This document shows positions 884-40,540 of a stretch of 64,000 bases of DNA, in pieces. The stretch lies in contig NW_024704742.1 of NCBI RefSeq assembly GCF_018977255.1, positions 3,660,001 through 3,724,000 of the forward strand, in the 5' to 3' direction. This DNA is from Callorhinchus milii (taxonomy: Eukaryota). Position numbers and translations under genes: made by a program. Numbering within the stretch: the first letter of the stretch is position 1; the number at the start of each line of letters is the position of its first letter. Below the pieces are notes generated by a model. The model did not search any database, was not told the origin of the DNA, and saw only the letters and a program-made list of their open reading frames with translations.

Positions 884-1190
884 CCAGAGCACTCGCTTTG
901 CAAGTGAGAGACCTGAGTTCCACTCCAGGCAGAGGGCGAAACCTTGGGCAAGTTTCCTTACTCCACACAGAGCCTAATAATAATCCCTCCAAAACCAAAA
1001 ACAATAATAAATTGGTCATTTTCAATCTACGACTGTTTGTGGGACATTGCTGTGCGCAATTGGCTGCCGCGTTCGCCCACAAATATACAGTCAATTCACT
1101 TTACAGTGTGTTCTGTGAAGCGCTTTAGGACGTCCTCCCGACGTGAAAAGCGCTGTATCAAATGCAAGGATTATTATTATTATTATTATT
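884..1190 (+). mobile_element. tRNA-Ala-derived Deu-domain SINE, young subfamily A
   Basis: Partial tRNA head, Deu-like core gctgtgcgcaattggctgccgcgtt, tail stem-loop with a CTCCC loop, and (TTA)n. Near-identical to the copies at 5697, 15978, 26561 and 39790. Confidence 0.9.
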
Positions 1191-1225
1191 TATTCAATAT
1201 TCAAGAGCAGTCTTTTTTCTCATAC

Positions 1226-1360
1226 CTCTTGTTCTTGTGTATCTGGGCGGAGCTGGTAGATTTGCGTTTGGGTAATTTGCAGTGTACAGATGGAGGCTTT
1301 GTGATTGGAGCGATTAGCAGAGCATCCAGAAGAGATGGAGATACAACAGGATCAGAGAGT
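1226..1360 (-). CDS. PDLIM5: PDLIM5 cassette exon LSDPVVSPSLLDALLIAPITKPPSVHCKLPKRKSTSSAQIHKNK
   Basis: Very long pyrimidine tract plus ccgctag, donor GAG|gtatga, 135 nt, phase 2->2. Resembles the recalled mammalian SLLDALCISPVSKP...RKSTGS segment. Confidence 0.82.
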
Positions 1361-2222
1361 CTAGCGGGAACAGATTATCGGAAGGAAAAAGAAAGATAAC
1401 GGAAGAGGGGAATCAGAGAAGAAATACGCAGACGAAGCAGAAAATGGCCAGAAGCATTTGCAGGATGAAGGACATTAAAAAAAACGCACATTTTTTGGCG
1501 AAAGCCGGCTGCTGTTTTTTTTTAAAAACAAAAACAATATAAATATTCTCAACCATCAGATTTTAAAGTGCGTTTCTGGCGAGACAAAATAATAAAAACG
1601 TCTCTGGCATCTTGCTCGAATTAAAAGCTTAACGAAATGGCATTCCAATCGTTCGCAGAAGTGACTAAATGTGGCTGAAACATGAAATTCAAAGACCAGA
1701 GGGTCCTGAGCTCTAAATGTCCGACAATCTCTCTCTGTCTCTACCCCACCCTTTTCTAACACGCATGTCAAAATTACACACAATACTAGACGGGTTACAA
1801 TACAGGTATTTTTGGACGTTCTCCCCAAATTACTTCTGCTCTTCATCAATTGTGGAGATTTGATATATCTCCCTGTCTTCCCAACAGACTGACTTCAAGG
1901 TCCTCTCACTCACGTATAAACCTCTGCCCACTCTCTTCTGCTACTCCATGCCCCCCCTCCTCTCAGCTAACCCATTGCACGATCCCTCTACGCCACCATT
2001 GGTGACTGAGCCGTCAGCTTCTAACGCCAAGCTCTCTCCCTCTAAGCCTCGCTCTTTGCCTGCTGTCACGCGTTTCTCTCCATCTCAGCCTCAAACGACG
2101 TAATTATTAAGTGCTCCGAGAAACTACACGACGTGAAGGACACTACTGTATATAAATGCGAGGTGTTGTTATCTAGAACCCGAAACGCTCAGCATTTCAC
2201 CAGCTATTTATTCGTGTTCTAC

Positions 2223-2348: not shown

Positions 2349-3448
2349 CTGAGTGAAAGAGAGAGAGAGAGAGAGAGAGAACGAGAACAAATTGAGAAGC
2401 AGAGAGAAGACAAGAACTCAGCAGTAGGGGAAAGGGAGAGGCGTTCATCAGATAGCGAGGCTTTACAATACAAGGGGTTAAATTAAACGGGTAAGATTAC
2501 TTTTCTTTAAAAAATGCCAAACATTAAGAAAAGTCCGAAACGCACAGATTTAACATGTTGCTGTTTTAATACCGTTCAGAAAGTTCACTAACACTCCTGA
2601 ACTGTGTGATCAAACACGATTTGGAACAGAGCAGCTACGGAAAGATAAACAGGTGGGGTTCTCCTGGTCTGAACGGTTACCTCTGTAGAGGGAGAGACGA
2701 GAGTACAACTGATGGCCTACATGGGGACTTGTAGACAGCTGCTGATGAGTCGGTGGGCTCTCGAGGAACATCCACATGCCTGACCAATCACCCGATGTCA
2801 GACAAAGGCATTTGAAAGAAAAACAATCGTCACAAAAGTCAGATCAGTTGAACCTAGTGGCCATTTGTACTAAGGGAATGGAGAGGCAAAGACAGTGACG
2901 TCCCATTAATGTACCAAAGGGTTACTTGCATTCTATCAGCAGTATTTAAGGTTGTAAACAGCACAAACACTGAAATGGTATTTGTTCTTTCAAATACCAA
3001 AAGTCATTCGCAAATTATAAAAATATGCACACGCCTCCTACACAGTTAGAGCTGGGACTCACTAACCATTAGTCATTAAGAGCCAGAGTCTCGTCAAACT
3101 GAACCGCAAATTAAAAATTAATTTGTCACAAATGACTTTGTTTGCAAATACAATTGCCCAACAGCATCGGTATTCTCTGAACTATCCGAGCAGAACATTC
3201 TATTCTCTGCGATATCTTAAGCAGTCTATTAAACTACAATTTCTTCTCCTCCAGTTTGGATGTTAGTTTCCTCCTCCGCTCGGTACAACTGTTTATAGGC
3301 TATGAATTGGAACATCTTGTGAAACAATTCAAACAAAATACGTCTCGCACAATTAAACCAAATAAGGTCATCCAAAAAAGATTCACAAGACACCAGATTG
3401 GTAACGCTCACAGTTATGACAAAATTGGACGCGGCTTTGCTACTGTAC

Positions 3449-3575
3449 CTGTCTGAAACGACTGGAACATAGACAATAGGTTCAGCAGCTCTTACAGCTG
3501 ATATTGGAACCAGCAGTGGAACGGCAAGAGTGAGATCTTCATTGGTCTGTGTAGCTACTGATTGCTTCCCACCAT
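3449..3575 (-). CDS. PDLIM5: Candidate cassette exon (D)GGKQSVATQTNEDLTLAVPLLVPISAVRAAEPIVYVPVVSD(R)
   Basis: ttcttgcccactag|...GACAG|gtacag, 127 nt, phase 1->2. Together with the 275-nt form upstream it totals 402 nt, which is in frame. Confidence 0.35.
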
Positions 3576-3811
3576 CTAGTGGGCAAGAACCTACGTGGAC
3601 ATCCTGTGAAGTGCTTCGAGACGTCCTCCCGACGTGAAGCCCACTGTACCAAACAAACATAAGGATTATTATCCAGCTTGAAGCTCGCGAGCTTTAAACC
3701 GAGGGAAACAACTCGTTACGTAAAAACCACAATATCATTTACGACGGTCGATTCTTCCATCTACTGGTGCGATTAAGCTGCTTCTGTCGGCTGCAGAAAA
3801 CGTCAGCTCAC

Positions 3812-4086
3812 CGCTGCTCATGCACATCGGTAACTGTCCTACGTTAGTCACGGGTGCCGGTCTTTTTCTATACCTCTGGGAAACGGCAGGAGCAAAGAAT
3901 TCAGAAGCTTTTAGAGTCGGGGTGGGCGGTGTGACAGCGAGCACAGGAACGTCACACGCTTGAGTTGTCGCTGAACGTTTCCAGGTATCCACCGGGCAAA
4001 TCTTTGCATCGGCTTCACTGGGCAGCACTTCAATAGCAGTCTGGCTTGCGGGGGCCTTTTCAAAAGGTTCGGCGTTGCCTGAAGCG
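3812..4086 (-). CDS. PDLIM5: Candidate cassette exon ASGNAEPFEKAPASQ...FFAPAVSQR... (alternative donor at 3874)
   Basis: Pyrimidine tract tttgttttctttttgcccgcgaaag, open in phase 2 (ORF 3735..4115). Donors are AG|gtatag (213 nt, phase 2) or G|gtgagc (275 nt, phase 1). Confidence 0.45.
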
Positions 4087-5696
4087 CTTTCGCGGGCAAA
4101 AAGAAAACAAATCACTTTGGGCGGGTTGCGGAGGAGGGAGGGCAGGAGAGGACACTAGGGACAAAGTCATACAACAAGTACTTTTGCAGTTGTTGTCGAT
4201 TATTGTGTTAACTGATCTTTGCCCGTAATTTCAAGGAGATTCCTACGCAAGGCGAAGCACTCAGCTCCGTGTTTGATAGCTGTAATATGCAACTCAGTAG
4301 AATTATAATTAATGCACGTTATAAAACAGCTAAACTGCACAGTAAGCTTCAAAGAGAACAACCTACGTGAAAGTCCAGAATTTATAAATTTATGAAGCGA
4401 GAGTGACAAAGAGGCTGTAATTTCGCACAACTTTCAGAACTGTGCTGTGGAACCTTTCGTGAGTTCCCTGACTGGATAAACGCAACAACTAACTATACAT
4501 TTATTTTCTCTGGAAACTTATTTACACAGTGTCTTTCACGCGTGGGAGATTGTCACCTGAGATAGGGGTGGGAACCGAGGAGGGTGGGGTGGGAAAAGGT
4601 GACCGAAAGTGCACTCGAAGGGGTAGGTTCTTGAACACATTATCACCAAACACCGACAGGGAAGGTAGCTCATGATTATTATGAATAATATGCAAATAAA
4701 AGATCTTAAATCGGGATTGCTATCATCATGTCATGAACTCAGCTTTGGCTTTCTTTAGCCCATTTCATTCCTGATACTCACTGCGTTCACCTACTACACT
4801 TTTCCCCCTCACCCTGAAGGAATCATCAGCCATAAAAAGGTGAAGTGCTCAATGCACCCGACACTGGGGTTCCAGCACAACTTACAATTATTTTGCACCC
4901 TTCACGCGGGTAGCTTGGTGGAAGACTTAATAGTGTCTTGGGGCTAAGTTGGTGGGGGGGGGTGTGGGTCTGTGTGTGTGTGATCAAATTCTTTATCCCA
5001 AATTTTGTGTGGTATCTCAGGCAAAGGAACTGAAAGGCTTAGATTTGGATCAAGTCCTGAGCAGTTCAGTGTCTGCAGGGTTTGGTATGGAGACTGCACA
5101 TAGACATAGAAGGAAAAAGTTTCCAGGCAACACACGGGTTGGTTTGAGATTATTCTGGTGTAGGGCCAGACTGTATCCAGGCCTCCAAGGGGCGAGTTAT
5201 TGTACTGGCTTTAAATTTCTTTTTGGCAAGGTTTAGGTTGTTTTTTTTTGTTGAGCATTTTTTAAAAAAAATGGTAGCTCTCTCCGCCCACCCACCACCC
5301 ACCGTTCCCGAGCTGGATAGATAAATTCCCAGGTATCTGCTCAATGGTAACTCCGTAACTAGTCATCCTCCCTCGTGTTGCCTCCACCTAGGGTTCTGCC
5401 CAGCAGGTCTCACCAGCGTAATAGCAAAGATTGTAAGATTGAGAACTCGTGGGAGGATTCAAAGACACCAACTCATTTCACGTCACCTTAGCTCATCGCT
5501 TGGCCTACTACACTGTAAATTCCGCAACCTCGGTCTTTACACTGGAACAGAACTGTCCACGTGGAACCCTTTCAGCCAGGAGTGGAAAAAAAAAACAGTC
5601 ACTTCCTCAGTATTGGGTAAGAGCAAAGCCAGAGAAGAAACGTTAAAGTGCTTAATGCACCTGACACTGGGGTGCCAACAGCATGGCACCCTTCAG

Positions 5697-15335: not shown

Positions 15336-15372
15336 CTCGGCTTCTTGCTACCATCGCTCTCTTCACTTTCCA
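15336..15372 (-). CDS. PDLIM5: PDLIM5 37-nt exon, (M)ESEESDGSKKP(R)
   Basis: ccttctatctcgttacag|...CCGAG|gtaaga, phase 1->2. Bridges the flanking exons in frame and corresponds to the recalled LKESEADNTKKA exon. Confidence 0.88.
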
Positions 15373-15977
15373 CTGTAACGAGATAGAAGGAACAAATAAA
15401 TGTAAGCTTGCCCTTGTTGAATTATTGATCGTGCCAGTAAAATATGAATCGATAGCGTGCAATATTGATGGACTATTCACCGGCTCCAAAAGGGTTAACC
15501 AGTTACAAGATTTACATGATAATAGTATTTGTCCTTGTTAAGCATTTAGCAGTTTTGATGTGCGCAAGAGTAGAAACAATGTGGTTCCTCCTGGGTAAAA
15601 GTGGATCGCTTATATTCCGTTGGTGCAATCCCTTATTCCAACATAAAGCACGATGCAACCCATGCAAAGGTGTGCGGGCACTTTATTGGGAAAAGTGAGC
15701 ATTCCGAGACGCTTTATGTCGGAATTGGGGATTGCACCAATTCATGAGAGTATTGGCAACGTTCTGTCAGTTGGTAGGCGCCCGAGCTGAGGGTAAGAAG
15801 CACATGAGACCATCAGTTCCAGTGAGTTCCAGTCCCACGGTGCATTCTGTTGCCCGGGGAGCCGGACAAGCAGGCTTCCCAGAAAAAATGAGATACCCGA
15901 GTCGTCGAGTGCACCAGCTCTCCTCCCCTGCTCCCCAAAAAAGCTACATAATGCGCTGAGAGAAAAGGGCACCGTTA

Positions 15978-16301
15978 TAATAATAATAATAATCCTTGCA
16001 TTTGATATAGCGCTTTTCACGTCGGGAGGACGTCCCAAAGCGCTTCACAGAACACACTATAAAGTGAATTGACTGTATATTTGTGGGCGAACGCGGCAGC
16101 CAATTGCGCACAGCAATGTCCCACAAACAGTCGTAGATTGAAAGTGACCAATTTATTATTGTTTTTGGTTTTGGAGGGATTATTATTAGGCTCTGTGTGG
16201 AGTAAGGAAACTTGCCCAAGGTCTCGCCCTCTGCCTGGAATTGAACTCGGGTCTCTCACTTGCAAAGCGAGTGCTCTAAGCACTGAGCTACAGGACTCCA
16301 C
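15978..16301 (-). mobile_element. Deu-domain SINE, subfamily A, full length
   Basis: Complete from the head gtggagtcctgtagctcagtg to the (TTA)n tail. Confidence 0.92.
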
Positions 16302-16449
16302 TGAAGTCTATGTTGGAACTAGATCAGTTCGTACAGAAGGGTATTACAGGGTATGGGAAAGAACAGGGGATGTCATTGGAGCAGCAAACACTGACGACGT
16401 CTTCACCCGTGTTGCAGATTCCCCTAGCTCTATTTTCTTTCCAAAGTCA

Positions 16450-17018: not shown

Positions 17019-17188
17019 TGTGTTCAGTGCCGGTCATTTGGGCAAGGATTTGGAATGAGCGGGATTGGCATGTTCCAGTCCTTGGTTGCCAGTCTTCGGT
17101 GTCCTCCATTAGGCGTTTTTTGCTTTGGTCACTCAGAATATTAGCATGGTGCACCTCGGAGATGTCAGGCCCAAACCTCCTGCCTGCT
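17019..17188 (-). CDS. PDLIM5: PDLIM5 exon [56 protein letters not shown]
   Basis: Acceptor cacatgcag, donor CA|gtgagt, 170 nt, phase 2->1. Contains the ALP/Enigma-family SKKRLxEDTEDW..RTGTxQSRSFxILAQxTGTEH block. Confidence 0.95.
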
Positions 17189-17227: not shown

Positions 17228-17536
17228 TAATAATAATAATAATAATCCTTGCATTTGATGCAGCGCCTTTTCCCCTCTTCTCGACGTTTCAAAGCGCTTA
17301 ACAGAACTGACTGTAAAGTGAATTGACTGTATATTTTCTGGGCGAAACGCGGCAGCCAATTGTGCACAGCAGCGTCCCCACAAATGTTCATGGAGTGAGT
17401 GACCGATTTTACTTTGGGGGGGGTGTTTGTTGCCCAGGACACCAGGAGAAACTCCCTTCTCCGTTTGATAAGTGCCCTGGGATCTTTAACATCCAACTGA
17501 ACAGGCGGTTTAGTTTAAGGTCTCATTCGAAGGACT
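17228..17536 (-). mobile_element. Older DeuSINE (SacSINE1-like body)
   Basis: gtccttcgaatgagac...ggatgttaaagatcccagggcac...cctggtgtcctgggcaac followed by the Deu core and a (TTA)n tail. Confidence 0.8.
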
Positions 17537-18679
17537 GAAGTACACAGTAAGAAAGTGAGTGAAGAAGAACATTACACTTCTTTCTTTAAACACGGTTCAA
17601 CTTCAACCTCTAGATTAATACATGGGATCTGCAATAATGGAGAAAAGACGACCGAGGTACTTTTTATAGAATCATAGTATCATACAGCAAAGAAGGAGGC
17701 CATTCAGCTCATCGTGTTTGTGTTGGCTTTTTGAAAAGAGCTATCCAATTCAATCCCACCTCTTTGCTCTCTCCCCATAGCCCTGCGACTCTCCCCCAAC
17801 CTCCCCCCAAAGAAAGCTTCCAGTCATCCTAGGACAGAGAAAGCACTTTTTGAAAGTAAGAGTTGAGAGGAGAAGGCAAACAATACCAAAATGTGAATCA
17901 TTTACATGGAGCATAAAGCAGCACAATAAACATCTGGAAATCTCACGCTTCACATTTACGTTGGCTTAGCTCACAAGAGCACCAAAGAATGTTTAAGAGG
18001 GGAAAATATTCTGATTCGTAACAGATTTAATTACTAAATAAATACGTTTAAACTATCATGTAGAAACACTGCATTCTTCCTTCCATTTTTAAATACTGGC
18101 CCTCGGGATAACCCTCTCCACAACTTTGCTAAGGTCGAATGGTTTTGTTCAAAAGCCATTCTACCTCCTGCCCACTAAGTGGACCTAAGCAGTTTCCTCA
18201 AACCCAACATCTGAGCATAGGTGAATTCTCTGGGCTCGAAGCTGGGGGAGAGGTGGGGGTGGGTTGTGGAAAGTTGGTGGGATATGCATTCTGTTGATTG
18301 AAATTAAGTCATTCTAAGGATCCTCTTCATCCATCGCCCACTTGTAATCTTGCGATATGCGAAGTCCAGATAATGAAGCTGAAGATAACGAAAATAAGAC
18401 TAAGAGCGCGGTGTGAAAGAACTAAATGCACTAATTTGTTTCTCTGTTAACCAGTGTGCAGAGAATCACTGCTAAAGTAACGACCCTGAAACCATAGCCC
18501 AATGGGAGCAAATCACACAGTCCAAGAGGAACTCAGCCGGTGGGATATTGCAGGTATCAACCTGTGCCCTACCAACTGTGCAGCACAGCGTATTGGAGTG
18601 ACTCGGGCGACTACGCGATTTAATAGAATCAAAACACTTGTGATTTGGCATTTAAAGAATAAAAGACCTGGATAATTAC

Positions 18680-18697: not shown

Positions 18698-19214
18698 CTT
18701 TTAAAGATCCCAAGAACAGTGGTGAAGCCAGAATATTGAACGGAAGAACAAGCAGAAAGTACACAAGGAGATTGGAGATCAGAAAGACAAGGGAAAGAAA
18801 AGATTTTAAGACAACAGTTCTCTGAAGATTGTCGAGAGTAACTATGAGATTTCACACAAGGAAGCCAGGAGAACAAGCGTCTAATTAAACGGTGAGCCAA
18901 ACATCTTGGGTATAAGGACCACAAGCACTTTTAAGTTATCTTTAATTATGGCTTCCCCATTGAAAGCCGGCCTTTTGACATGTCCGTACTGATGAAAGGC
19001 TTCCTTTCACATTTCCCATTTATCTTTGTAAGAACGGACAGGACTTTTTTGTGTTGTGATTATGCTCTCGAAGCAGCTTCAAACACTTTGCAACTAGTCT
19101 TTCGAATGGAGGCTGACCATTACTGGAGTCAACTTTACTTACATGGTCTTTTCTGTGTCACGGTGACCTGAAATTATTTCCCCGAGGCCACAGAAACGTT
19201 GAAGTAATTAAATA

Positions 19215-19545
19215 ATTATAATAATAATCCTTGCAACTGATATGGCACCTTATCGTAGAGTGGAGATGTCTGAAAGCACTTCACAAGATTTTACCGTGAA
19301 ATGTAGTGACTGTGTATTTGTGGGTGAAGCTTGCAGCTGATTTGCACACAGCAATGTCTTGCAAACGCTCGTGAAGAAAATGACCAATTTTATCTGAGTC
19401 ACTGGCTAGCCCACCCGGGCAAATAGACTGTTGGGTTTGTCTACAAATACAGACTCAATCCACTTTACAGTATATCCTGTGAAGCACTTTGAGACGTCCT
19501 CCCGATGTGAAAAGTGCTGCACCAAACACAAGGATTATTATTATT
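19215..19545. mobile_element. Two inverted SINE 3' fragments (19215-19395 minus, 19440-19545 plus)
   Basis: Tail sequences in opposite orientation. Confidence 0.75.
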
Positions 19546-19746
19546 TTACCTAGCAAGTCTACCGTATAAATTTTCTCTCAGCGGCTAAAGTAAATGTTCC
19601 CTGATCTTAAAGTGAATCCTTCCTATGCAAAGGGCAACTCTCTCCACAGCACTCCATTTTAATTTCCTGCACAGGAGCCATAAGAATGTTTGCGAAAGAA
19701 CCTTTTAAAAGAAAGCTCGAGAGAAAGCAGATGACAATGCACTTAC

Positions 19747-19767
19747 CCGGAATGAAACACAGGGCCA
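19747..19767 (-). CDS. PDLIM5: PDLIM5 21-nt microexon, GPVFHS(G)
   Basis: ccttcctgtgtctgcag|TGGCCCTGTGTTTCATTCCGG|gtaagt. Consensus donor, phase 2->2, frame-preserving. Confidence 0.72.
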
Positions 19768-22496: not shown

Positions 22497-22513
22497 TTGG
22501 CCAACATCTGTTT
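22497..22513 (-). CDS. PDLIM5: PDLIM5 17-nt microexon, KQMLA(N)
   Basis: ctcttttctttgcag|AAACAGATGTTGGCCAA|gttagt, phase 0->2. Positional and length equivalent of the recalled mammalian KTQVTN microexon. Confidence 0.7.
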
Positions 22514-24228
22514 CTGCAAAGAAAAGAGATCAAGTTTCATCAGTAAACAAAATACACTTTGCATTTCACAGGGCTAGTCAATCCGAGCTTCAAAAGATTT
22601 GGGTGTCTGGGATTTAAGCAGGAGAGCTCTTCCGGAGAGCCGTGAAATATGTGTTACCAAATAATAAACATCTTTGAAATGAGTTGAAGTGGTATTTCCT
22701 TTGAAGCTTGGATCAACTATATCCTGGTGTTTAACAAGGAGCTGGCACGAGCCTCCTGTACAGCATAGTCTGTTTGCAAGCAGAGAGCAGGGGAATTTAA
22801 TTTGCTCAAAATACCTTTTGGGAGGAAATGCAAAGGCATAGTTTCCTCTCCCCCCACCCCCACCCCCTCACACACACCTTCATCCCACTCACTCCAAAAC
22901 AAGAGTACGTGGGCTGAACGTTGTCACTGCATGTCACACAAACACAGATGGGTCGGTTGATAAAAGACTAGTTACTGCGTAAATATTTTGTCGCCATCAG
23001 AATTGCCTGCACAGCTTTTCTGTCCTGCAAAATATCAGTCTCTCAAAAGTAGATTCACACTCCATCATTTACGTTTGCTGAAGATTAACTGGCATTTGCC
23101 CTGTCTAGTTTATTCCTCTAAGCCATCAACATTCTGCACGGTTAGCCCATGCTCTGCATGCAATCCAGCAATGCAGCGATATCAGAAGGAATGATGCGAA
23201 AGATAAATTGAGAGGCCTGTCTGTAATAGAGAGGTTAAGGCAATTGCTCAAGTGCCAACATTTCACCGGCATTGTGCTCACCCTCTGGTAAGCGGGGGTT
23301 TGTATTGCAGAGATCAACATCTGAGAACAAGGTGTAAAGCTACAGCAAGACAAGAATTCTGCCAGTGCATTTTTCTGGAATTTTTTTGTTTGCAATGTTG
23401 GTGGTTGGGGGTAGTGGGGGGGTGGGGGGGGTGTGGGAGAGAGGGAGAAAGAGGAAAGAGACAAAAATCCCATTGAGGTTTGTGACAACAAATAATGGTG
23501 GTGCAGAATCCACACAACTGAAGCCTACATCTGTTCACAGGTTACTAAACTACAGGACAATTCCAGCGAGTCATTGGGTGGAAGAATACACGTTATGTTT
23601 TCATCATTTAGAAAATAGAACAAGTGAATACCCCCACACTTTTGGACAACTTTTCCCTCCCACGCTCCTTCCCTCTTGGCTCTCAGTGAGCTGCATTCAG
23701 TGTTGCCCAATGCGATTAACATTGATATAGCACCTTTCACGTCAGGAGGATGTCCTAAGGCACTTAACAATACTGCCTTGACACCCGAGCTGGGAGTGGG
23801 AAAGGGAAAGACGACCGAAGGCACGGTCAGAGAGCTCGGTCTTCAGAAGGACCTTGAAGAAGGTGAGGGAGGAAGCGTGTTTGAGGAACTCCAGGATGGA
23901 GTCATGAGTAGATCGGGAGCTTGGCTAGGCCTCACTGTCACAGGTCTGCGACCCAGCACTCTCAATGTCAACTCTATCGGACTGGACAAAAAGGGAGCGA
24001 GTTAGCCACGTTCTACACGCTAAAGCTTCAGTCACTGCAAAACCGAACGAATGACCCATCTGAACTCGTGCGACATTCAGTGAAATGTTAACCGACCAGT
24101 CCTCAAAGAGCCTCACGTAATCAGAGCATACTCGTGTGGATGCAAACAGATCGCTGCTGGGGCCAGGCTGCACGTGTCCGCTGCTCGCTCTCAGTCCCAT
24201 CTCAGGAGACCTGCCAAAGCCACCTTAC

Positions 24229-24689
24229 CCATTCTGCTGCTTAATGTCACCCTGCCCCTCTTTCAATCCTCTCTTCTGGCCCTCTGCCACCTCATGGGCA
24301 TTGTCAGAGGAGTAAAGGCTTATGGGGGTGTTGTACAGGTTGCTCTGCCGTGGGACATTAACGGACGAGGTTACTGAAGGCTTAGCAGCGCTGGCTGCTG
24401 GCGGATATCCATCGGCACTAGTTTTGGCGTAGGCATGCAGGGGCTGTGAAGATGCAGTGGGTGATGGAGAAGGAGCAGTGGAAACCCGAGGGGGTGAAAG
24501 GGCTGATGAAGCGGTGGCAAAGGATGCAGGCTGTGGCTGTGCAGGGGGAGGAGTGCCTCTGGGAGGAGTTACAAGTCCGAATGGCCTGGGTGATTTATTG
24601 TAGGCAGAGCTGGATGCAGAGGGGATCTTTGGAGCCAATGGAGCAATGGATGCTATAGGCACACTAGAGGTTACCTCCTTGGGCTCATC
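24229..24689 (-). CDS. PDLIM5: PDLIM5 large Pro/Ser-rich exon, DEPKEV...AYNKSPRPFG...VNVPRQ...AEGQKRG...QGDIKQQNG
   Basis: Lies within ORF 24225..24752. Acceptor ctctttgctcag, donor GG|gtaagg, 461 nt, phase 0->2. EPKEV, AYNKxPRPFG, VNVPRQ and QGDxKQQNG are characteristic of PDLIM5/ENH. Confidence 0.95.
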
Positions 24690-26172: not shown

Positions 26173-26560
26173 GATGAAAGAATATATGCATCGACGCGTA
26201 TATATTTTATATGGAATGGGCTAACGGTATGGAGTGACTGGGTTAAAGCTTCATACTTATTTGAATCCTAGGTTCGGTGTCAAAATAAGCGGGCAGCACA
26301 GACCGCTGGCCAAAATGCCCTCGATCGAATAGTTTTTAAACACAGGTTGCACAGGATCTCAGTGACCTCCAACCGCCAGATTGAAACGACGCATCAGTTG
26401 CATGATAGTTTTCAATCGTGCACACACATGCTCCCAATCGACTCCGTGTGTAATGGGGTTCCATGGACTTGGTGGGTTCCCACGGTAGCTCAATTCATAA
26501 ACTCACTGCTTACTGCGAGATTACTGTGCAAACCAAGAGCTTGGGGTTGATTCCCCGACC

Positions 26561-26891
26561 TAATAATAATAATAATAATCCTTGCATTTGATATAGCGCT
26601 TTTCACGTCGAGAGGACGTCCCAAAGCGCTTCACAGAACACACTGTAAAGTGAATTGACTGTATATTTGTGGGCGAACGCGGCAGCCAATTGCGCACAGC
26701 AATGTCCCACAAACAGTCGTGGATTGAAAATGACCAATTTATTATTGTTTTTGTTTTTTTTGGAGGGATTATTATTAGGCTCTGTGTGGAGTAAGGAAAC
26801 TTGCCCAAGGTTTGGCCCTCTGCCTGGAATTGAACTCAGGTCTCTCGCTTGCAAAGCGAGTGCTCTAACCACTGAGCTACAGGACTCAACT
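26561..26891 (-). mobile_element. Deu-domain SINE, subfamily A, full length, nested in family Y
   Basis: Complete copy whose flanks rejoin as a family Y element. Confidence 0.92.
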
Positions 26892-27746
26892 GCATTGAAC
26901 TGACAGATCCCAGCTGGGAGGAGAAAATAACTCACGCCCGGGTTTCCCGCCCACCATCAGAAATGAGTGACCCTTGTGCAGATCATGGATGACAGAATCC
27001 AGACTCACTTGTGACACAACTAATCGTTGCCAACAATCGCTGACTTGGCGCAAGCCGAAGACTTGCCACTGGGGTTTAACTCAGCCAAATGTGGACAGTG
27101 CTCGTGCTACCACAGCCCAGTAACGGTCGGCGTTATTGAGGGGAGGAGGGGGGAAAAAAGGTAGGGAACAGCGCCTTTCGGGTCTGGAGGACATCTCATA
27201 AAGCGGGACACTGCCGGGTGGGGGTGGCTCACAGAGATGGACCTTGAACGAGGTGAGCGAGTCAGAGGGAATCCGGGATAACTGCATTTAACAAATCAAA
27301 AGAGCCAAAAATGCACAGTTGCTGCGGGTGTTCAAAGGTCCACTTTGACGATCAGAATTAAAACAAAAAAGAGGTAATCTGCAGATCAAAAATCCGTCGG
27401 TCTCTGAAAGCGACAGCTCACCGCTTCAAGGAACAATCAGGATAGCTCTGTAACTCTCGCTGCCACCACGAGAGTGCACTGTTCACATTAAATCTTTGCA
27501 TGAAAGTGCCAATGATATGCTCGAGACATAAAGCAATGATGCAGTAATGTATGCTACAAAAAATGACTTAGCATTGTGCTTTAAAACAACTATTTTCATT
27601 CAATCTATTCTAGATTAACAGCCCGGTAAAGCTCGTTCATGCACATGAACAAAAGTGCTGACGTTTTTAAATCGGAGCCAGTCGGTTTCCAGTCACAAGG
27701 CACAAGCATGAAGACCCACAGGGAATTTCAAATCCTTTTTACGTAC

Positions 27747-27789
27747 CTTCTGAACTGTTACGAAGTCAGATTTTGCAGACTCGGGAGTC
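27747..27789 (-). CDS. PDLIM5: PDLIM5 43-nt exon directly after the PDZ domain, (R)TPESAKSDFVTVQK
   Basis: Acceptor ttcttcctatttttcag, donor AAG|gtacgt, 43 nt, phase 2->0. Length and the VQK end match the mammalian RASAAPKPEPVPVQK exon as recalled. Confidence 0.88.
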
Positions 27790-27904
27790 CTGAAAAATAG
27801 GAAGAAAGCACCAAAAATCAGGATGATTTGAAACCAAACTGCAACACCACAAATGCAACCATTTTGCTAAACACCTGAACAGTATTTCAACAAGATAACA
27901 TTGG

Positions 27905-28160
27905 TAATAATAATCATAATAATACTCATTGCGTTTGATATAGCACCCTATCACGTCTTCGAGACGTCTCAAAGTGCTTCACGGAATACATTGTAGAGTG
28001 AATTGATTGTATGTTTTGCGTGCGAAATTCGACAGCCAATTGCGCACAGCAGCGTCCTACACACAGTTCCGGATTGAGTGATTTTTTTTCAAACAAAAAA
28101 TATTGTTGAAGGGGTTATTACCCCCGGAAAAGAGATCCGCCAATCGACTAACAAGCGGGA
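27905..28160 (-). mobile_element. Deu-domain SINE, subfamily B, 5'-truncated
   Basis: Deu core and TCGAA-loop tail. Confidence 0.85.
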
Positions 28161-30367
28161 AATGTAGGGAGACACTTTTGACGTCATGAATTGGCTTGGG
28201 AAGTGAAGATTTTTGAGTGGCCAAATCAAAGATAGTTCGGTGACTGCAGCTCCAAACCACTCCTGTTTGCGTCAGTAATGTTTCACACCTTAGTCACGGC
28301 GTCAAGAAATTTGCCTCTCCACGGATATCAGATACCAACTCGCACGCTCACATTGCATCCAGTGCCTGAGGGAGAGACACTCAACTCCCTATTCTCAGGA
28401 GAAGAGGTTTATTGTGGATGGTGCTGTGGGCCAGAGAGCAAATGGTTTTAGATGCAGGTTGGCAGGAGCCAAGGCTTGGGGACCCCATAGTGTGCGTAGG
28501 GGTACTACCGGAGGTCTAACCAGCTCAGAACCACTGAGAAAGCATTTTCCGGTTCCAGCCAGGACCCACCTATTAGGGCTTCGGCTTACAGAGTTAACAG
28601 GAGCTGAGCGGGAAGAATCCCTTCCCCCAGTGACTGCTCTGCCCCACCAAGTCCTGCCGATGGGCTGTGCTGTGCTGCGCTGTCATCAGCAGTGCCCTGG
28701 AACACTGCAGACCCGCCTGGCTCAGAAACTGGACGACCGAGAACGCCGGAGGGCGGAATCGATTCCGTGGCCAAGTTAGCAAAAATGTAATACGCTTGAA
28801 ACGAATTATACCGCACTGACAACTGATACAAGTATCATGTGCACAATTAAGTTTTCTATCAAGTCAAACCGCTGGAGCCTCCCGGGGCCGTTGGGTGAAT
28901 TGATGTGCGTCAAAGTCACACCCAAAGGAGCAGCTGAAAGGGTAATTTAAAAGAAAGGGATGGAAAGTTCCGGAATGTTCACTGGTGACATCAAGAGGCA
29001 GGTTCGTTGCAGGCCAAAGCCTGTCTGACTAACACGCCCCCATTGCACGGTGAAAGAGTGCACCTCATATCAAGCGGGTTTCTGGGAATCGCCAGGAGAA
29101 ACGGCGGTCACCTTCCTCTCAATCCAACGCGGCATTTCGGACCATTCTTTCGGTGCTGTGTACACGCGCCGCATAGCTGATTCCATACCTCAAAGAATAC
29201 AGCACGTTAGTTCCCTAGAACGTTACAGCACGGAAAGAGAGGCCAACTCGCCCTCGCCAGTGCTTACACACTCCACTCGAAGCACTCGCCCCTCATTTTC
29301 CCCTCTCTTCCCTCTCCCTTCACGTTTCCATCACGTTTCTTCGTCCATGCTTTTTGCTTCAAACCACAGCTTCCGGCATACAGTTCCACGTTCTCTCCAC
29401 CCTCTGCGTAAAGGGGTACCTGCTAAACACCCCTCTGAAATGCTGCTGGCTGTCTTATATTTACAGCCCTTATTTTCGACTCTATCAGGTGCGCTGTTTA
29501 CCAGAACTGTCCTGAAACCAAATTTGGAGAATATCAATTGAAACGAAAAGCTGCAGGCTTCTCCCCTCCTTTGCCCCACTTTACCACTTGTAATTTAATC
29601 CAGTCCCACTATTCCACCCACTCTTTCCAGACCAAACTCAGCTTTGCACGTGCACCTTTCCACCCACTATCCGTGGTTGACGTTTCAGACACGAAGCATT
29701 TGCTCACCTCAAAACTCTTCCAAACCCACCCCCCCCCCCCACCTCACATCCCTTCAAAACCTTTCTAAAATGCCTTTGGCCACCCTCATCCTGCCTGCCC
29801 CTCCTATTTCTTCCCACCTTGTTTGCATTTTCACTCCATCTCTGAAGTGCTTCGGGATATTTTGCTACATGAAAGGCACTGTGTAAGTGCAACTGGTTTT
29901 GTTCTGGCGGTACCGAAATATTTACTGATCAGCACGACACTGACATGTAGAAAACTCGATGGGTGTGGGGTGGTGTGTGTGCAGAAACAGTGAGGACATT
30001 GCTTTCACGCCAGGGTTCCCATTCTACCCCATAGGAGGCAACTCCTGTTGTCCTCAAGCAATCCTGTAACCTTTCAGGTTATAGCAGATTGTTGGTGGCA
30101 GAATCAGATTATCAAGTGATACTCTCTGGCAGAAATGCTGCTCCTTTGAAAATCTGCTTCAATAAATGAAACATCTGTTCAAATCCGACTCAGTCCACCA
30201 CACCCATCCAAAGGCTCGCGCACGAAGGATCTTGTTGCAAAAAGTACGCTTCCCAATGTCAACACAGGACTGCAAATTACTGCATTTAGGTTAACTACCA
30301 GGACAAGACGACCAAACCACGGTGAACTATAATTTCTTTGTTCATCCATCTGAAAGTTAAAATCAGA

Positions 30368-37795: not shown

Positions 37796-39789
37796 AATCT
37801 TTGTTGGACCCATCCCTCTGCCTTCCATTTCACCCCTCGACCCATTTCTTTACGTTGCCTCTATTTCCAGCTCTAAAATTTCAAAAGCTTCACTGTGGGA
37901 CATTGCTGGCACGGGTTAGCTGTTGGATTTGCTTAGTTGACATTCAATTATATTCTCAACATTGTAAAGAACTTTGAGACATTTGCTTTGATGTGAAAGG
38001 TATTAAATCACATGCAGTTAGTAATAGTAAGTGGGATGTTAAATATACATCACCTATTAGATTCAACCAAGAAATCTTTTCTCAGTGCCTGGAGTGCGAG
38101 TCACTTAGCCAGCGCCAGTTAACTGCATCGATACTGTAAGCTGTCTCGTTATTTGGGTCATTTGGCGATTTGCATACTGCACTGTGGCTCAATTTGCTTT
38201 GGAACAAAAATATCCGCAATAAATTTCATACCACGGGATTCGTGTTTTATCAGTGCGAGTGTACACATCTGCTTCCAGATGTGGGTAGGTTACAATTAAA
38301 GAAGTTCATTCAAATGGCTGTCCATCCAGCTTGTTTTTTTCCCCTTTGGCTAAATTCGTAAGCATCTGCTACACGTACTGCATATTTAGATAGGATGTCA
38401 CAACACAGAAACAGCCCATTTGTCCCAACTAGGCACAAAATATGTATATTGAAAGAGTGGGGGAGGATAGAAAGAGTCTCCGTGTTAAGTGGGATTAATA
38501 CAAGGTGTTTTTAGCAATTTCCAAGCACAACTACAATTAAATATATATTTTGCAATAATAGGGAATATTAATCTTCCGCAGGCTTTATGGATTAATGGGA
38601 AACATGTGTCACCAAAGTCCCCATACTCATAAAGCTGCCTCTTTGTATACTCCAGAAACTAAGCTGTCAAACACAGCTCTAGTACGAACAGAAACCAGCG
38701 CACCCGCACATAATTAATTGTAAACTAATGGTCTTTCTAACAGCAGCCACTTAAACACCATCCTAAAGGACTAATCTCTAAAATAATTCCAGGCTTCAGG
38801 ATTTACATTAAGCAGTTTTCCTGGACTAATTATTGCCACAATTTGGCTCTCACACTTTGTAACCCTTTCCCTTCCCTTTTCTTCTATTGATGTATCATTC
38901 CCATCCGCCTGCTCTAGACGTTGAAGAACCCGAGGCACTGTTTGAATAGAGAAGGGAGTGGGACGTTGCTGTGCACAAATTGGCTGCCACGTTCATTGGC
39001 AAAATACACGGTCCCTCACACTGCAGTAATTGGAGCAATTTCAGATGTCCTCCCGATGTGAAAGGCACTATATCAAACACAAGGATTATTATTAGGAATA
39101 ATAAATCAAGTTATACAGTACCGATGCTGATTGCATCTGGACTGCAACTACCATATCAATTGCCTGGACACAAGCTGTTACAACCTATAGATTTGGGTAG
39201 GAAATAGCTAGAAAACATCATAGTGAACTCATCTGTTTAGCAGATTACGTGCGTTGTACAATAGAGTCCTGTTAGAGCGGAACACGCCACACTTGTATTT
39301 AGCGACAATCCAAACATTGCATTGCAGCGCAATTAGCTGGAGGGCAGGTCATAAGATATCTCTCATTTCCTCTCATTCCTGGGAACACAAATGTAAGATG
39401 AATAGCCTCTCTAGCTACGTGAAGAAATAAATATTGATGGGAATCGGGTCCTTCGCTTCTCCCCCATCCCCCACTCCCGGCTCACTCGACACATTTTGCT
39501 CACAGCAAGGTATGTTGTATGAGTTTAACGATTCATGCAAAAAAAAAAGCAGCTAAGCGAACATTTTTGTGCATGAGGTGAAGAGGGAGAGAGTAAATCT
39601 ATTCTTCATTCTTTACCAAACAGTAGCACCACTGTTAATGCATTCCTTCACCTTCCTGAGGCTAAATACTTTTTTCCCCCACCCTTGCCTGAACAAGCCC
39701 AATCTGTATCACTGGCAACACAAGTAAAATGGGTTTAGCTTAGCTCAGCGTTGCACTGTAGATGAAATTGCTGAGTATTCAATACTTAT

Positions 39790-40049
39790 TAGAGGGCGAA
39801 ACCTTGGGCAAGTTTCCTTACTCTACACAGAGCCTAATAATAATCCCTCCAAAACCTAAAACAATAATAAATTGGTCATTTTCAATCTACGACTGTTTGT
39901 GGGACATTGCTGTGCGCAATTGGCTGCCGTGTTCGCCCACAAATATACAGTCAATTCACTTTACAGTGTGTTCTGTGAAGCGCTTTGGGACGTCCTCCCG
40001 ACATGAAAAGCGCTATATCAAATGCAAGGATTATTATTATTATTATTAT
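39790..40049 (+). mobile_element. Deu-domain SINE, subfamily A, 5'-truncated
   Basis: Near-identical to 884-1190. Confidence 0.9.
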
Positions 40050-40540
40050 GGCGAACAATCGGAACTTGCTCGCGCTCTCCTCAATTACACAATGGCTAAA
40101 AATGAGTTGCGACATTGGCTGTGTGTGTCAAATCCCATCCTTTGCTCCCCAACCCCCACCCCAGCACCCACTCCATACCCATCTCCGTGGTCTACAACTT
40201 CCTTAATTATTCCCGAAAGGAAAAAAAAATGATACGCGTCAAGATGTCTACGTCCCCGAGGGTCCCCTTATGTCCATAGTAATCCAAGGTACCAACGATG
40301 ATTGAACAAACTGCCCAGCTCCTCAATGAAACCTGCCGGAGAGCCGTGTCTGCAGCTCTGTAAAGTCAAAGCTCTGATGGAAAGGTCCCAGCTGGTCAGG
40401 TCTCAGCTTGTCAAGTCCTGGCCTGTTCTGATTTTGTTTCCATACAAATAGCTCAAAACCCGTGAGCGTTCAAACTCACGTGTAATGAACCTACGTGTTT
40501 AGGCGGTGTTTATCTGCTACACAAAGGATTTCCACCCTCT

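What the first reader, a model, noticed from the sequence alone, without database searches (positions are those of the whole stretch)
24276..24335. This PDLIM5 retains a recognisable ZM (Zasp-like) motif
Seen: the exon encodes YNTPISLYSSDNAHEVAEGQ. Known: the ZM motif of LDB3/ZASP, PDLIM3/ALP and PDLIM1/CLP36 has the form (Y/F)N(T/N)PxxLYSxxNxxxxxxGQ and is implicated in alpha-actinin binding and Z-disc targeting. Mammalian PDLIM5 is usually described as lacking it, and I recall PTVTSVCSETSQELAEGQ at this position. Inference: ancestral jawed-vertebrate PDLIM5 carried a ZM that decayed in the mammalian lineage, leaving only the AEGQ end.
Basis: partly seen in the sequence, partly recalled or inferred. 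Interest (0 to 1): 0.75.

Follow-up and report, generated by a model that had tools for sequence, protein, structure and literature searches.

The report
Shark-lineage PDLIM5 keeps a ZM motif
An exon of the elephant-shark PDLIM5 gene encodes an intact ZASP-like (ZM) motif, an ancestral muscle-scaffold docking motif that cartilaginous and ray-finned fishes keep but that wore away in lungfish and land vertebrates, most fully in mammals.

Summary
Window 24335..24276 on the minus strand encodes YNTPISLYSSDNAHEVAEGQ, inside a 461-nt exon (24689..24229).

- **Splicing.** The exon's GT-AG junctions are bridged by contigs of 4 of 4 public runs.
- **Gene identity.** The gene is Callorhinchus milii PDLIM5. 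The exon is 100% identical to UniRef V9KCG7. The PDZ domain matches PDLIM5 at 137 bits against 109 for ZASP. A separate LDB3-like locus lies on another contig.
- **HMM test.** Pfam DUF4749 scores 47.8 bits on the full protein (cut-off 28.7) and 27.6 bits on the exon alone.
- **Distribution.** The core [YF]N[ST]P..[LM]Y[SA] is complete in 16 of 16 cartilaginous and 10 of 10 ray-finned PDLIM5 aligned. It reaches at most 5 of 7 positions in all 29 lobe-finned and tetrapod sequences: lungfish 4, turtles 5, birds 1-2, mammals 0 with a 5-residue deletion.

An ancestral ZM is therefore supported, but the decay began before the lungfish-tetrapod split, not in mammals. Database isoform models also make the motif optional: two micro-exons can replace the exon.

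Function is inferred from ALP and Zasp work: docking on the alpha-actinin rod and/or on LIM domains. This is a new member of a known kind, of modest interest.

The parts
24276..24335 (-). The 20 codons of the ZM motif, YNTPISLYSSDNAHEVAEGQ
   Evidence: Translation. Pfam DUF4749 at E = 4.6e-05, profile positions 7-26. The only match to the ZM pattern in the window, with none in 100 shuffles.
24240..24341 (-). Stretch of the exon matched by Pfam DUF4749 (profile positions 5-38 of 93): NLYNTPISLYSSDNAHEVAEGQKRGLKEGQGDIK
   Evidence: residues 117-150 of the 153-aa exon translation, 27.6 bits.
24229..24689 (-). 461-nt coding exon of PDLIM5: a Pro/Ser/Ala-rich linker followed by the ZM motif. It starts in phase 0 and ends after two bases of a Gly codon.
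   Evidence: Splice signals. 100% match to V9KCG7_CALMI. tblastn. Junctions 27747|24689 and 24229|17188 are bridged by contigs in 4 of 4 runs.
24229..24344 (-). Inferred sub-exon, used when an internal acceptor (cag at 24347-24345) is chosen. It gives a short linker joined directly to the ZM motif.
   Evidence: Predicted isoforms of sharks (P0058, P0060, P0063), wrasses (P0095-P0097), gar (P0226) and seals (P0236, P0237) join the upstream exon directly to the residues 2-3 codons before the motif. In C. milii there is only a weak hint: one contig of run X7 stops exactly at 24346, where such a form would diverge.
17019..17188 (-). Next coding exon ([10 protein letters not shown]...[35 protein letters not shown]), the C-terminal part of DUF4749
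   Evidence: tblastn. Splice signals. Junctions 24229|17188 and 17019|15372 are present in 4 of 4 runs. The full-protein DUF4749 match covers residues 214-310.
27747..27789 (-). Upstream 43-nt coding exon ((R)TPESAKSDFVTVQK), ending ..CAGAAG
   Evidence: Junction to 24689 in 4 of 4 runs.
22497..22513 (-). 17-nt micro-exon (KQMLA + 2 bases), the first of two that replace the ZM exon in the database isoforms X4 and X3
   Evidence: P0224 and P0225 read VQK-KQMLANGPVFHS-GAGRRF. The sequence has ag/gt signals.
19747..19767 (-). 21-nt micro-exon ((N)GPVFHS + 2 bases), the second of the pair. 17 + 21 = 38 nt keeps the same frame as 461 nt.
   Evidence: Pfam DUF4749 on the ZM-minus isoform P0224 falls to 15.1 bits, profile positions 53-87.
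15338..15372 (-). Following small coding exon (ESEESDGSKKP). The lower boundary is approximate.
   Evidence: tblastn. Junction 17019|15372 in 4 of 4 runs.

Best explanation
The stretch is the 3' part of an internal coding exon of Callorhinchus milii PDLIM5 (ENH). [quoted passage not shown] That motif is the N-terminal part of Pfam DUF4749, which continues in the next exon.

The motif is an ancestral ALP/Enigma-family feature. PDLIM5 kept it in cartilaginous and ray-finned fishes. It eroded in the lobe-finned lineage, starting no later than the lungfish-tetrapod ancestor and ending with a 5-residue deletion in placental mammals.

It most likely works as a short linear docking motif. By analogy with ALP and ZASP it would bind the alpha-actinin rod and help target the protein to Z-discs and stress fibres. 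By analogy with fly Zasp it could also be bound by LIM domains of Enigma-type proteins.

Its presence in the protein appears to be set by alternative splicing. The three forms are: full exon (long linker + ZM), internal acceptor (short linker + ZM), and two micro-exons in place of the exon (no ZM).

Shown here: the sequence, the splicing of the long form, the HMM match, orthology, and the phylogenetic pattern. Taken from database gene models: the other isoforms. Inferred: every binding function (my odds about 0.5).
For: - **Sequence and exon.**. Spliced contigs in 4 of 4 runs.
- **Identity.** 100% match to UniRef 'PDLIM5 Callorhinchus milii'.
- **PDZ and LIM matches.** The PDZ domain scores 137 bits to PDLIM5 structures, against 108.8 for ZASP and 102 for PDLIM7. 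LIM1 scores 137.9 bits to the PDLIM5 LIM structure. The gene's own second PDZ exon scores 70.6 bits for ENH/PDLIM5 against 49.7 for the next hit.
- **Paralogues are separate.** The C7 locus matches ZASP/LDB3 best (68.6 against 54.6). The C13 locus pairs with a named PDLIM7 at 100/100 support in the tree.
- **The exon alone finds only PDLIM5.** All 60 hits are PDLIM5 by name or unnamed. Of the 29 representatives, the 20 clusters I looked up (19 carried a source name) gave PDLIM5/PDLIM5-like names or unspecific labels such as 'hypothetical protein'; no other family was named.
- **Pfam DUF4749 scores.** 47.8 bits for the C. milii protein. 40.6-48.8 bits for 7 of 7 cartilaginous proteins scanned. 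34-47.8 bits for 9 of 9 ray-finned proteins that include both halves of the domain. Mammals score 17.7-22.2 and birds 17.0-18.3.
- **Core count.** 7 of 7 positions in 16 of 16 cartilaginous and 10 of 10 ray-finned sequences. At most 5 of 7 in 29 of 29 lobe-finned-lineage sequences.
- **Conservation.** In an alignment of 11 fish PDLIM5, the motif is an island of invariant columns (Y216 N217 T218 P219 I220 L222 Y223 S224 ... G234 Q235 R237 G238 L239) in an otherwise variable linker.
- **Paralogues in the same genome.** ZM exons in the LDB3-like, two ALP-type and one further locus share the motif and the same split between the ZM part and the C-terminal part.
[quoted passage not shown] ZM-LIM binding drives Zasp oligomerisation in flies (PMC6910826, passages).
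Against:
- **The exon alone misses the cut-off.** It scores 27.6 bits against Pfam's 28.7.
- **The tree is weak on the key branch.** The branch uniting all PDLIM5 has only 76% bootstrap and 14% SH-aLRT support.
- **Synteny does not discriminate.** BMPR1-type receptor exons lie next to both PDLIM5 and the LDB3-like gene, and both match the same solved BMPR1B chain.
- **Sampling gaps.** No coelacanth, bichir, monotreme or marsupial sequence was obtained, so the start of the decay is bounded only by lungfish.
- **Mammals are not simply decayed.** The replaced segment is itself nearly invariant among the placental mammals seen. The region was re-purposed rather than left to drift, and the fish motif could likewise serve a function other than alpha-actinin docking.
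- **Isoform evidence is indirect.** The ZM-minus and short-linker isoforms of C. milii rest on database gene models plus one contig end, not on junctions I saw.
Confidence: 0.78

Rival explanations
1. The motif is real and conserved but does a different job in PDLIM5. Possibilities are a phospho-regulated Tyr/Ser site or part of an intramolecular contact of the DUF4749 region. On this view it does not dock on alpha-actinin or on LIM domains.
For: - Mammalian PDLIM5 works at Z-discs and in neurons without the motif. Its PDZ domain is reported to bind alpha-actinin (PMC3591300, passages).
- The DUF region of Pdlim5 (assayed in rat neurons) drives dendrite branching through other residues, such as Y251 (PMC11312917, passages).
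- The mammalian replacement sequence is itself conserved.
- The authors of the ALP work raise phosphorylation of the conserved Tyr-Ser as a possibility (PMC2670261).
Against: - The motif matches, position for position, the part of ALP shown to bind the alpha-actinin rod.
- It also matches the ZM exons of the paralogues in the same genome.
- It has stayed invariant across cartilaginous and ray-finned fishes.
Confidence: 0.17
2. Hidden paralogy. On this view the fish 'PDLIM5' genes are a different duplicate from tetrapod PDLIM5, so the pattern reflects reciprocal gene loss rather than decay of a motif within one gene.
For: The branch uniting all PDLIM5 in the PDZ+LIM tree is weak (76/14). Synteny was not decisive.
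Against: - The own-genome search finds only three Enigma-type loci: PDLIM5, LDB3-like and PDLIM7-like.
- The paralogue-specific linker blocks (EPKEV, AYNK..RPFG, VNVPRQ, AEGQ.RG, KQQNG) are shared from C. milii to mammals.
- The position of the internal acceptor is also shared.
- Lungfish, amphibians and turtles show graded intermediates of the same motif at the same place.
Confidence: 0.03
3. One reading: the motif stayed intact until, and decayed within, the mammalian lineage.
For: Mammals show the most complete loss: 0 of 7 core positions and a 5-residue deletion.
Against: - Lungfish-type sequences score 4 of 7.
- Amphibians score 3-5, turtles 5, crocodilians 3-4 and tuatara 4.
- Squamates and birds score 1-2.
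- The motif's proline is missing in 28 of 29 lobe-finned-lineage sequences. The one exception (cobra) rests on a doubtful gap placement.
Confidence: 0.02

Closest known systems
ZM motif of LDB3/ZASP/Cypher (SMART SM00735; N-terminal part of Pfam DUF4749)
   Same: - Same motif. The LDB3-like locus of the same genome reads QYNTPISMYSQDAIMDAIAGQ, against LYNTPISLYSSDNAHEVAEGQ here.
- Same place, between the PDZ domain and three LIM domains.
- Same split of DUF4749 over two exons.
- In both genes the ZM-coding exon is alternatively spliced. For ZASP this is from my own knowledge; for PDLIM5 it comes from database isoforms.
   Different: - It is a different gene. The PDZ domain of this one matches PDLIM5, and the LDB3-like gene lies on contig C7.
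- Here the motif is fused to a long Pro/Ser/Ala-rich linker in one 461-nt exon with an internal acceptor. It is not a small exon of its own.
ZM motif of ALP/PDLIM3 and CLP36/PDLIM1
   Same: The core FN(S/T)P..LYS is shared. In ALP this part binds the alpha-actinin rod and is needed for localisation (PMC2670261). ALP-type loci of C. milii carry it too.
   Different: Those proteins have one LIM domain. Binding has not been tested for any PDLIM5 ZM motif.
Mammalian PDLIM5/ENH middle region ('DUF4749' of PMC11312917)
   Same: - Orthologous exon and flanking blocks (VNVPRQ ... AEGQRRG ... KQQNG).
- Same internal acceptor (VQK|PTVTSLCSE in seal isoforms).
- Same downstream SKKRL.EDTEDW.PRTGT.QSRSF.ILAQ block.
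   Different: - The YNxPxxLYS half is gone: 0 of 7 core positions and a 5-residue deletion.
- DUF4749 scores 17.7-22.2 bits, below the cut-off, and starts at profile position 16-18.
- Reviews list ZM only for PDLIM1, PDLIM3 and ZASP (PMC9751615, PMC10754285, PMC1781342; passages). [quoted passage not shown]
Drosophila Zasp52/Zasp66 ZM domain
   Same: A ZM motif next to PDZ and LIM domains. Isoforms with and without modules set Z-disc growth through ZM-LIM binding (PMC6910826).
   Different: The invertebrate family is only weakly conserved with the ZM consensus, by the authors' own account. No isoform function is known for PDLIM5 in fishes.

Membership tests
ZM (ZASP-like) motif / Pfam PF15936 DUF4749 | Sequence pattern [YF]N[TNS]P..[LM]YS..N......GQ | tested here: met
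All fixed positions are present in YNTPISLYSSDNAHEVAEGQ. It is the only match in the window, with 0 in 100 shuffles. I checked it against the ZM exons of the paralogues in the same genome.
ZM (ZASP-like) motif / Pfam PF15936 DUF4749 | Pfam PF15936 score at or above the gathering cut-off (28.7 bits) | tested here: met
   The full protein P0004 scores 47.8 bits over residues 214-310, profile positions 5-87 of 93. The exon alone scores 27.6 bits and the 20-mer 24.6 bits, both just under the cut-off because the domain continues in the next exon.
ZM (ZASP-like) motif / Pfam PF15936 DUF4749 | SMART SM00735 (ZM) model match | not testable with these tools
   No SMART library is on hand.
ZM (ZASP-like) motif / Pfam PF15936 DUF4749 | [quoted passage not shown] | tested here: met
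   PDZ at residues 9-82, DUF4749 at 214-310, and three LIM stretches in the C-terminal part (best stretch 498-553).
ZM (ZASP-like) motif / Pfam PF15936 DUF4749 | Common descent with the ZM exons of the paralogues (same exon split) | tested here: met
   At three other loci of the genome the family matches in two pieces, profile positions 1-38/42 and about 39/47-85/89. A fourth locus (C28) matches only in the C-terminal piece. Here the pieces are profile 5-38 in this exon and the rest in exon 17188..17019.
ZM (ZASP-like) motif / Pfam PF15936 DUF4749 | Binds the alpha-actinin rod or LIM domains and targets to Z-discs or stress fibres | not testable with these tools
Otherwise this needs bench work.
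PDLIM5 (ENH) orthologue | PDZ and LIM domains closest to PDLIM5 among the seven paralogues | tested here: met
   - Whole protein: PDLIM5 PDZ 135.9-137.2 bits, against ZASP 108.8 and PDLIM7 102.3. The PDLIM5 LIM structure scores 137.9 bits.
- Second PDZ exon alone: 70.6 bits against 49.7 for the next hit.
PDLIM5 (ENH) orthologue | Paralogue-specific linker shared with tetrapod PDLIM5 | tested here: met
   The exon alone retrieves PDLIM5 of mammals (E about 1e-14), lungfish, caecilian, squamates and a bird.
PDLIM5 (ENH) orthologue | Groups with PDLIM5 in a tree that includes the other Enigma-type genes | tested here: inconclusive
   Best tree of 21 rows and 266 PDZ+LIM columns. All 18 PDLIM5 fall on one side of a branch, but with 76% bootstrap and 14% SH-aLRT support. 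The window's gene joins shark and ray PDLIM5 at 93/97. The C13 locus joins turtle PDLIM7 at 100/100.
PDLIM5 (ENH) orthologue | Conserved gene neighbourhood (BMPR1B next to PDLIM5 in human; recalled, not from a call) | tested here: inconclusive
   A BMPR1-type GS-domain exon lies about 246 kb from the gene (C1:3390578). A like exon lies about 112 kb from the LDB3-like gene (C7:8759780). Both match the one solved BMPR1B chain best (44.2 and 42.1 bits), so type A and type B cannot be told apart.
LDB3/ZASP orthologue (considered, rejected) | PDZ domain closest to ZASP/LDB3 | tested here: not met
   This gene scores 45.5 bits to ZASP against 70.6 to ENH. A different locus, C7:8.56-8.65 Mb, scores 68.6 bits to ZASP/LDB3 and has its own ZM exon.

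The most novel reading that the evidence does not exclude
In the ancestral jawed vertebrate, PDLIM5 was a splice-switchable ZM protein. One gene made ZM-plus forms (with a long or a short linker) and ZM-minus forms (two micro-exons in place of the ZM exon). This resembles the 'growing' and 'blocking' isoform logic described for fly Zasp.

The lobe-finned lineage then gave up the ZM docking function of this paralogue. It re-purposed the same, still alternatively spliced, segment for a new and conserved role. Fish Pdlim5 would therefore reach Z-discs by a route that mammalian PDLIM5 no longer has.
Probability: 0.25. Interest if true: 0.5.

Novelty: new member of a known kind. Interest (0 to 1): 0.3.

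Why it matters
Reviews of the ALP/Enigma family list the ZM motif for PDLIM1, PDLIM3 and ZASP, or for all members except ENH and Enigma. That picture is drawn from mammals.

The comparison here shows that PDLIM5 belonged to the ZM-bearing set in the jawed-vertebrate ancestor. It still does in cartilaginous and ray-finned fishes, including teleosts that carry both pdlim5 copies.

Three practical consequences follow:
- Results on Pdlim5 from zebrafish may not transfer to mammals, or the reverse, wherever the linker matters.
- Nature has supplied a graded series, from intact through 5 of 7 and 4 of 7 to deleted. That series could be used to map which ZM residues matter for binding the alpha-actinin rod or LIM domains.
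- 'DUF4749 present or absent' in databases depends on a threshold that this decay crosses. For example, turtles pass and birds do not.

It is not a new kind of element, and Pfam-based annotation already marks the fish proteins.

Tried and rejected
- **Structure prediction** on alignment A1 (11 sequences): mean pLDDT 36.6 and pTM 0.22. Even the PDZ domain came out below 50, so the model is unusable. The small pLDDT bump and the helix at residues 225-241 are not evidence.
- **The look-up of sequencing runs:** no RNA holder is listed. The kind of the runs is guessed. I used only what their contigs bridge.
- **Other junctions:** those of the micro-exons and of the internal acceptor were not among the 15 of 554 joints shown.
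- **Coelacanth:** none among the best 120 of 1996 hits of the lungfish query, nor among the 63 hits. No monotreme, marsupial or bichir sequence was obtained either.
- **Synteny by BMPR1-type neighbour:** not discriminating.
- **ZM in the PDLIM7-like locus:** a relaxed pattern scan of C13:5140300-5153400 found nothing. The named turtle PDLIM7 also has no DUF4749 hit at E up to 0.1.
- **The search of earlier findings (place, near):** nothing to show.
- **LDB3 identity of the gene:** rejected.
- **Literature:** I found no paper describing a ZM motif in fish PDLIM5. The searches were:
  - 'zm motif' + 'pdlim5' (3 papers)
  - 'zm-motif' + 'enigma homolog' (7)
  - 'duf4749' (9)
  - 'pdlim5b' or 'pdlim5a' (14)
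  - 'zasp-like motif' + 'enh' (30 papers, 12 listed)

  I read passages of seven of these papers only, and no supplements. Subscription-journal papers are not in the library.
Full report
**What is in the sequence**

The reverse complement of window 24276-24335 translates to YNTPISLYSSDNAHEVAEGQ, while the plus strand gives nothing of note. The peptide lies near the end of a 176-codon open frame on the minus strand.

Splice signals define a 461-nt exon, 24689..24229. It has a polypyrimidine tract plus ag at 24691-24690, and gtaag begins at 24228. The exon encodes a Pro/Ser/Ala-rich linker (DEPKEV...AYNKSPRPFG...VNVPRQ) followed by the motif and KRGLKEGQGDIKQQNG.

Neither occurs in 100 shuffles.

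**Whose exon it is**

The exon is 100% identical to UniRef V9KCG7_CALMI, 'PDZ and LIM domain protein 5' of Callorhinchus milii (P0004, 615 aa).

tblastn places four of the protein's exons in the window:
- 27789..27747
- 24689..24229
- 17188..17019
- about 15372..15338

Further exons below 4100 match long shark isoforms.

The whole gene spans C1:3637014-3760581 of the window's own assembly. Its PDZ exons lie outside the window.

Contigs of four public runs from two studies join 27747|24689, 24229|17188 and 17019|15372, each with GT..AG ends on the minus strand. The kind of these runs is a guess, not on record. So the exon is used as drawn.

**Orthology**

- Against solved structures, the PDZ domain scores 135.9-137.2 bits to PDLIM5/ENH, 108.8 to ZASP and 102.3 to PDLIM7. 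LIM1 scores 137.9 bits to the PDLIM5 LIM structure.
- The gene's second PDZ exon alone gives 70.6 bits for ENH against 49.7 for the next hit.
- The own genome holds two other Enigma-type loci. The PDZ exon of C7:8.56-8.65 Mb matches ZASP/LDB3 best (68.6 against 54.6). C13:5.13-5.17 Mb ties PDLIM5 and PDLIM7 in that test but pairs with a named turtle PDLIM7 at 100/100 in a tree.
- In that tree (21 rows, 266 PDZ+LIM columns) all 18 PDLIM5 fall on one side of a branch, but only at 76/14 support. The window's gene joins shark and ray PDLIM5 at 93/97.
- The strongest argument for one-to-one orthology is the paralogue-specific linker. The exon alone retrieves mammalian, lungfish, caecilian, squamate and bird PDLIM5.
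- Synteny was not decisive. BMPR1-type receptor exons flank both PDLIM5 and the LDB3-like gene, and the solved structures cannot tell type A from type B.

**Is it a ZM motif?**

| Query | Pfam PF15936 (DUF4749) score | Profile positions |
|---|---|---|
| Full protein P0004 | 47.8 bits (cut-off 28.7) | 5-87 of 93 |
| Exon alone | 27.6 bits | 5-38 |
| 20-mer | 24.6 bits | 7-26 |
| ZM-minus isoform P0224 | 15.1 bits | 53-87 |

The eLife 2019 paper equates this Pfam model with the ZM domain (PMC6910826). The domain continues in exon 17188..17019. Comparing the first and last rows, the exon contributes about 33 bits.

Four other loci of the same genome carry ZM exons:
- the LDB3-like locus: QYNTPISMYSQD...AGQ
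- C7:5.39 Mb: QFNSPLQLYSQQN...QGQ
- C1:56.88 Mb, which has two
- C13:3.81 Mb

Three of these loci show the family split over two exons at the same profile position as here; a fifth DUF4749 locus (C28) matches only in the C-terminal piece. SMART's own ZM model could not be run.

**Distribution among PDLIM5 orthologues**

I aligned the segment from 55 PDLIM5 proteins. I then counted seven core positions, [YF]N[ST]P..[LM]Y[SA].

| Group | Sequences | Core positions of 7 |
|---|---|---|
| Cartilaginous fishes | 16 | 7 in all |
| Ray-finned fishes (sturgeon plus nine teleost sequences, both pdlim5 copies) | 10 | 7 in all |
| Lungfish-type | 2 | 4 and 4 |
| Amphibians | 6 | 3-5 |
| Turtles | 4 | 5 |
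| Crocodilians | 2 | 3-4 |
| Tuatara | 1 | 4 |
| Squamates | 6 | 1-2 |
| Birds | 4 | 1-2 |
| Placental mammals | 4 | 0, with a 5-residue deletion |

Sequences seen outside that alignment agree:
- Gar, paddlefish, an electric ray and a skate are intact.
- An amphisbaenian is decayed.

Of the 29 representatives, 20 carry the intact core. The 12 of those that I looked up are ray-finned fishes. Eight were not looked up.

The motif's proline is missing in 28 of the 29 lobe-finned-lineage sequences. The exception, cobra, rests on a doubtful gap.

Pfam scores follow the same gradient:
- cartilaginous 40.6-48.8 bits
- ray-finned with both halves of the domain 34-47.8
- turtles 29.3-40.2
- tuatara 28.4
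- amphibians 22.2-33.9
- lungfish-type 21.9-26.8
- crocodilians 22.4-32.6
- squamates 17.4-24.9
- birds 17.0-18.3
- mammals 17.7-22.2

In the precomputed annotation, PF15936 is listed for 22 of 22 cartilaginous clusters and 0 of 38 mammalian clusters.

In an alignment of 11 fish PDLIM5, the motif is an island of invariant columns in a variable linker.

The C-terminal half (EVAEGQ.RG) and the KQQNG block stay conserved everywhere. The mammalian replacement (PTVTSVCSETAQELAEGQRRGSQGD) is itself nearly invariant among the placentals seen. So the segment was re-used, not abandoned.

An ancestral ZM in jawed-vertebrate PDLIM5 is well supported. It is present in both outgroups and in the paralogues, at the same exon position.

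The timing is wrong. The erosion is already plain in lungfish and amphibians. It therefore began no later than the lungfish-tetrapod ancestor and proceeded to different degrees in different lines.

Coelacanth was not recovered, so the earliest bound is open.

**Splicing**

This was not part of the finding. Database isoforms show that the motif is optional.

- C. milii isoforms X4 and X3 (P0224, P0225) read VQK-KQMLANGPVFHS-GAGRRF.
- That peptide is encoded by two micro-exons in the intron downstream of the ZM exon: 22513..22497 (17 nt) and 19767..19747 (21 nt). Both have ag/gt signals.
- Their 38 nt keep the frame of the 461-nt exon.
- An electric ray, a skate and an epaulette shark have like isoforms.
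- Separately, predicted isoforms of sharks, wrasses, gar and seals join the upstream exon to a point 2-3 codons before the motif. This implies an internal acceptor at the CAG of VPRQ (24347-24345 here) that is conserved from cartilaginous fishes to mammals.
- For C. milii itself I have only a hint. One contig of run X7 ends exactly at 24346, the last base that the two forms would share, because the upstream exon also ends in AG.

**How it most likely works (inferred)**

[quoted passage not shown] Deletions there, or a Tyr-Ser to Phe-Ala change, abolish localisation. The surrounding region is unfolded in solution (PMC2670261, passages).
- In flies, ZM is bound by LIM domains, and the balance of isoforms sets Z-disc size (PMC6910826, passages).
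- The C. milii motif matches the ALP and ZASP core position for position. I therefore expect a short linear docking motif for the alpha-actinin rod and/or LIM domains, presented on a long or a short linker or left out by splicing.
- None of this could be tested. The complex predictor was unavailable. The one structure model was unusable, with mean pLDDT 36.6.

**Known or new**

Reviews and primary papers list ZM for PDLIM1, PDLIM3 and ZASP (PMC9751615, PMC10754285, PMC1781342, PMC2670261; passages). [quoted passage not shown] None lists ENH/PDLIM5.

One paper treats the middle of Pdlim5 (assayed in rat neurons) as 'DUF4749' (PMC11312917). Another says loosely that the family 'characteristically' has the motif (PMC3591300).

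My five searches found no description of an intact ZM in fish PDLIM5 or of its loss in tetrapods. Pfam-based annotation already marks the fish proteins.

I file it as a new member of a known kind: a correct and tidy comparative observation of modest interest. It comes with a useful natural series of decayed motifs and an isoform switch worth testing.

Noticed in passing
window 22497-22513 and 19747-19767 (minus strand): Two micro-exons (17 and 21 nt, with ag/gt signals) encode KQMLANGPVFHS. In database isoforms X4 and X3 of C. milii PDLIM5 they replace the 461-nt ZM exon and keep the frame. Like isoforms exist in an electric ray, a skate and an epaulette shark.
   Followed up: partly
window 24345-24347 (minus strand): An internal acceptor (CAG of VPRQ) lies 3 codons before the motif. 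Predicted isoforms of sharks, wrasses, gar and seals use the equivalent site, so it seems conserved from cartilaginous fishes to mammals. One contig of run X7 ends exactly at 24346.
   Followed up: partly
G000:C13:5127961-5167696 (loci L010, L015, L016, L024-L027): The PDLIM7-like gene of C. milii pairs with turtle PDLIM7 at 100/100. It has the C-terminal DUF4749 block but no ZM-like core by a relaxed pattern scan between that exon and the PDZ exon. The turtle PDLIM7 has no DUF4749 hit at all. PDLIM7 may therefore have lost its ZM motif before the cartilaginous and bony fishes split.
   Followed up: partly
G000:C1, C7, C13: Enigma-type and ALP-type genes sit in pairs on the same contigs:
- PDLIM5 with a two-ZM ALP-type locus on C1
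- the LDB3-like gene with an ALP-type locus on C7
- the PDLIM7-like gene with an ALP-type locus on C13

A seventh locus stands alone on C28. This looks like the paralogon pattern that I recall for human chromosomes 4, 10, 5 and 8. The ALP-type loci were not labelled here.
   Followed up: no
G000:C1:3390578-3390643 and G000:C7:8759780-8759845 (L017, L018): BMP type-I receptor GS-domain exons lie about 246 kb from PDLIM5 and about 112 kb from the LDB3-like gene.
   Followed up: partly
window 1228-1365, 2222-2347, 3448-3609, 3873-4088 (minus strand): Exons matching the long isoforms of shark PDLIM5 (P0006, P0012) and C. milii isoform X3. Two of them (3448-3609 and 3873-4088) are similar to each other (CP.D.GK.S...Q...P.LA), an internal repeat.
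   Followed up: no
window 15901-16367, 17302-17768, 19170-19636, 26175-27108, 27576-28500: Summed contig depth is hundreds to tens of thousands of times that of neighbouring bins, and there are many chimeric joints. These look like high-copy interspersed repeats in the introns.
   Followed up: no
window 917-1399 and 39762-40232 (plus strand): Two open frames share a long near-identical stretch (EGETLGKFPYSTQSLIIIPPKPKTIINWSF...), followed by a Tyr-rich run. This is a repeated element present at least twice in the window.
   Followed up: no
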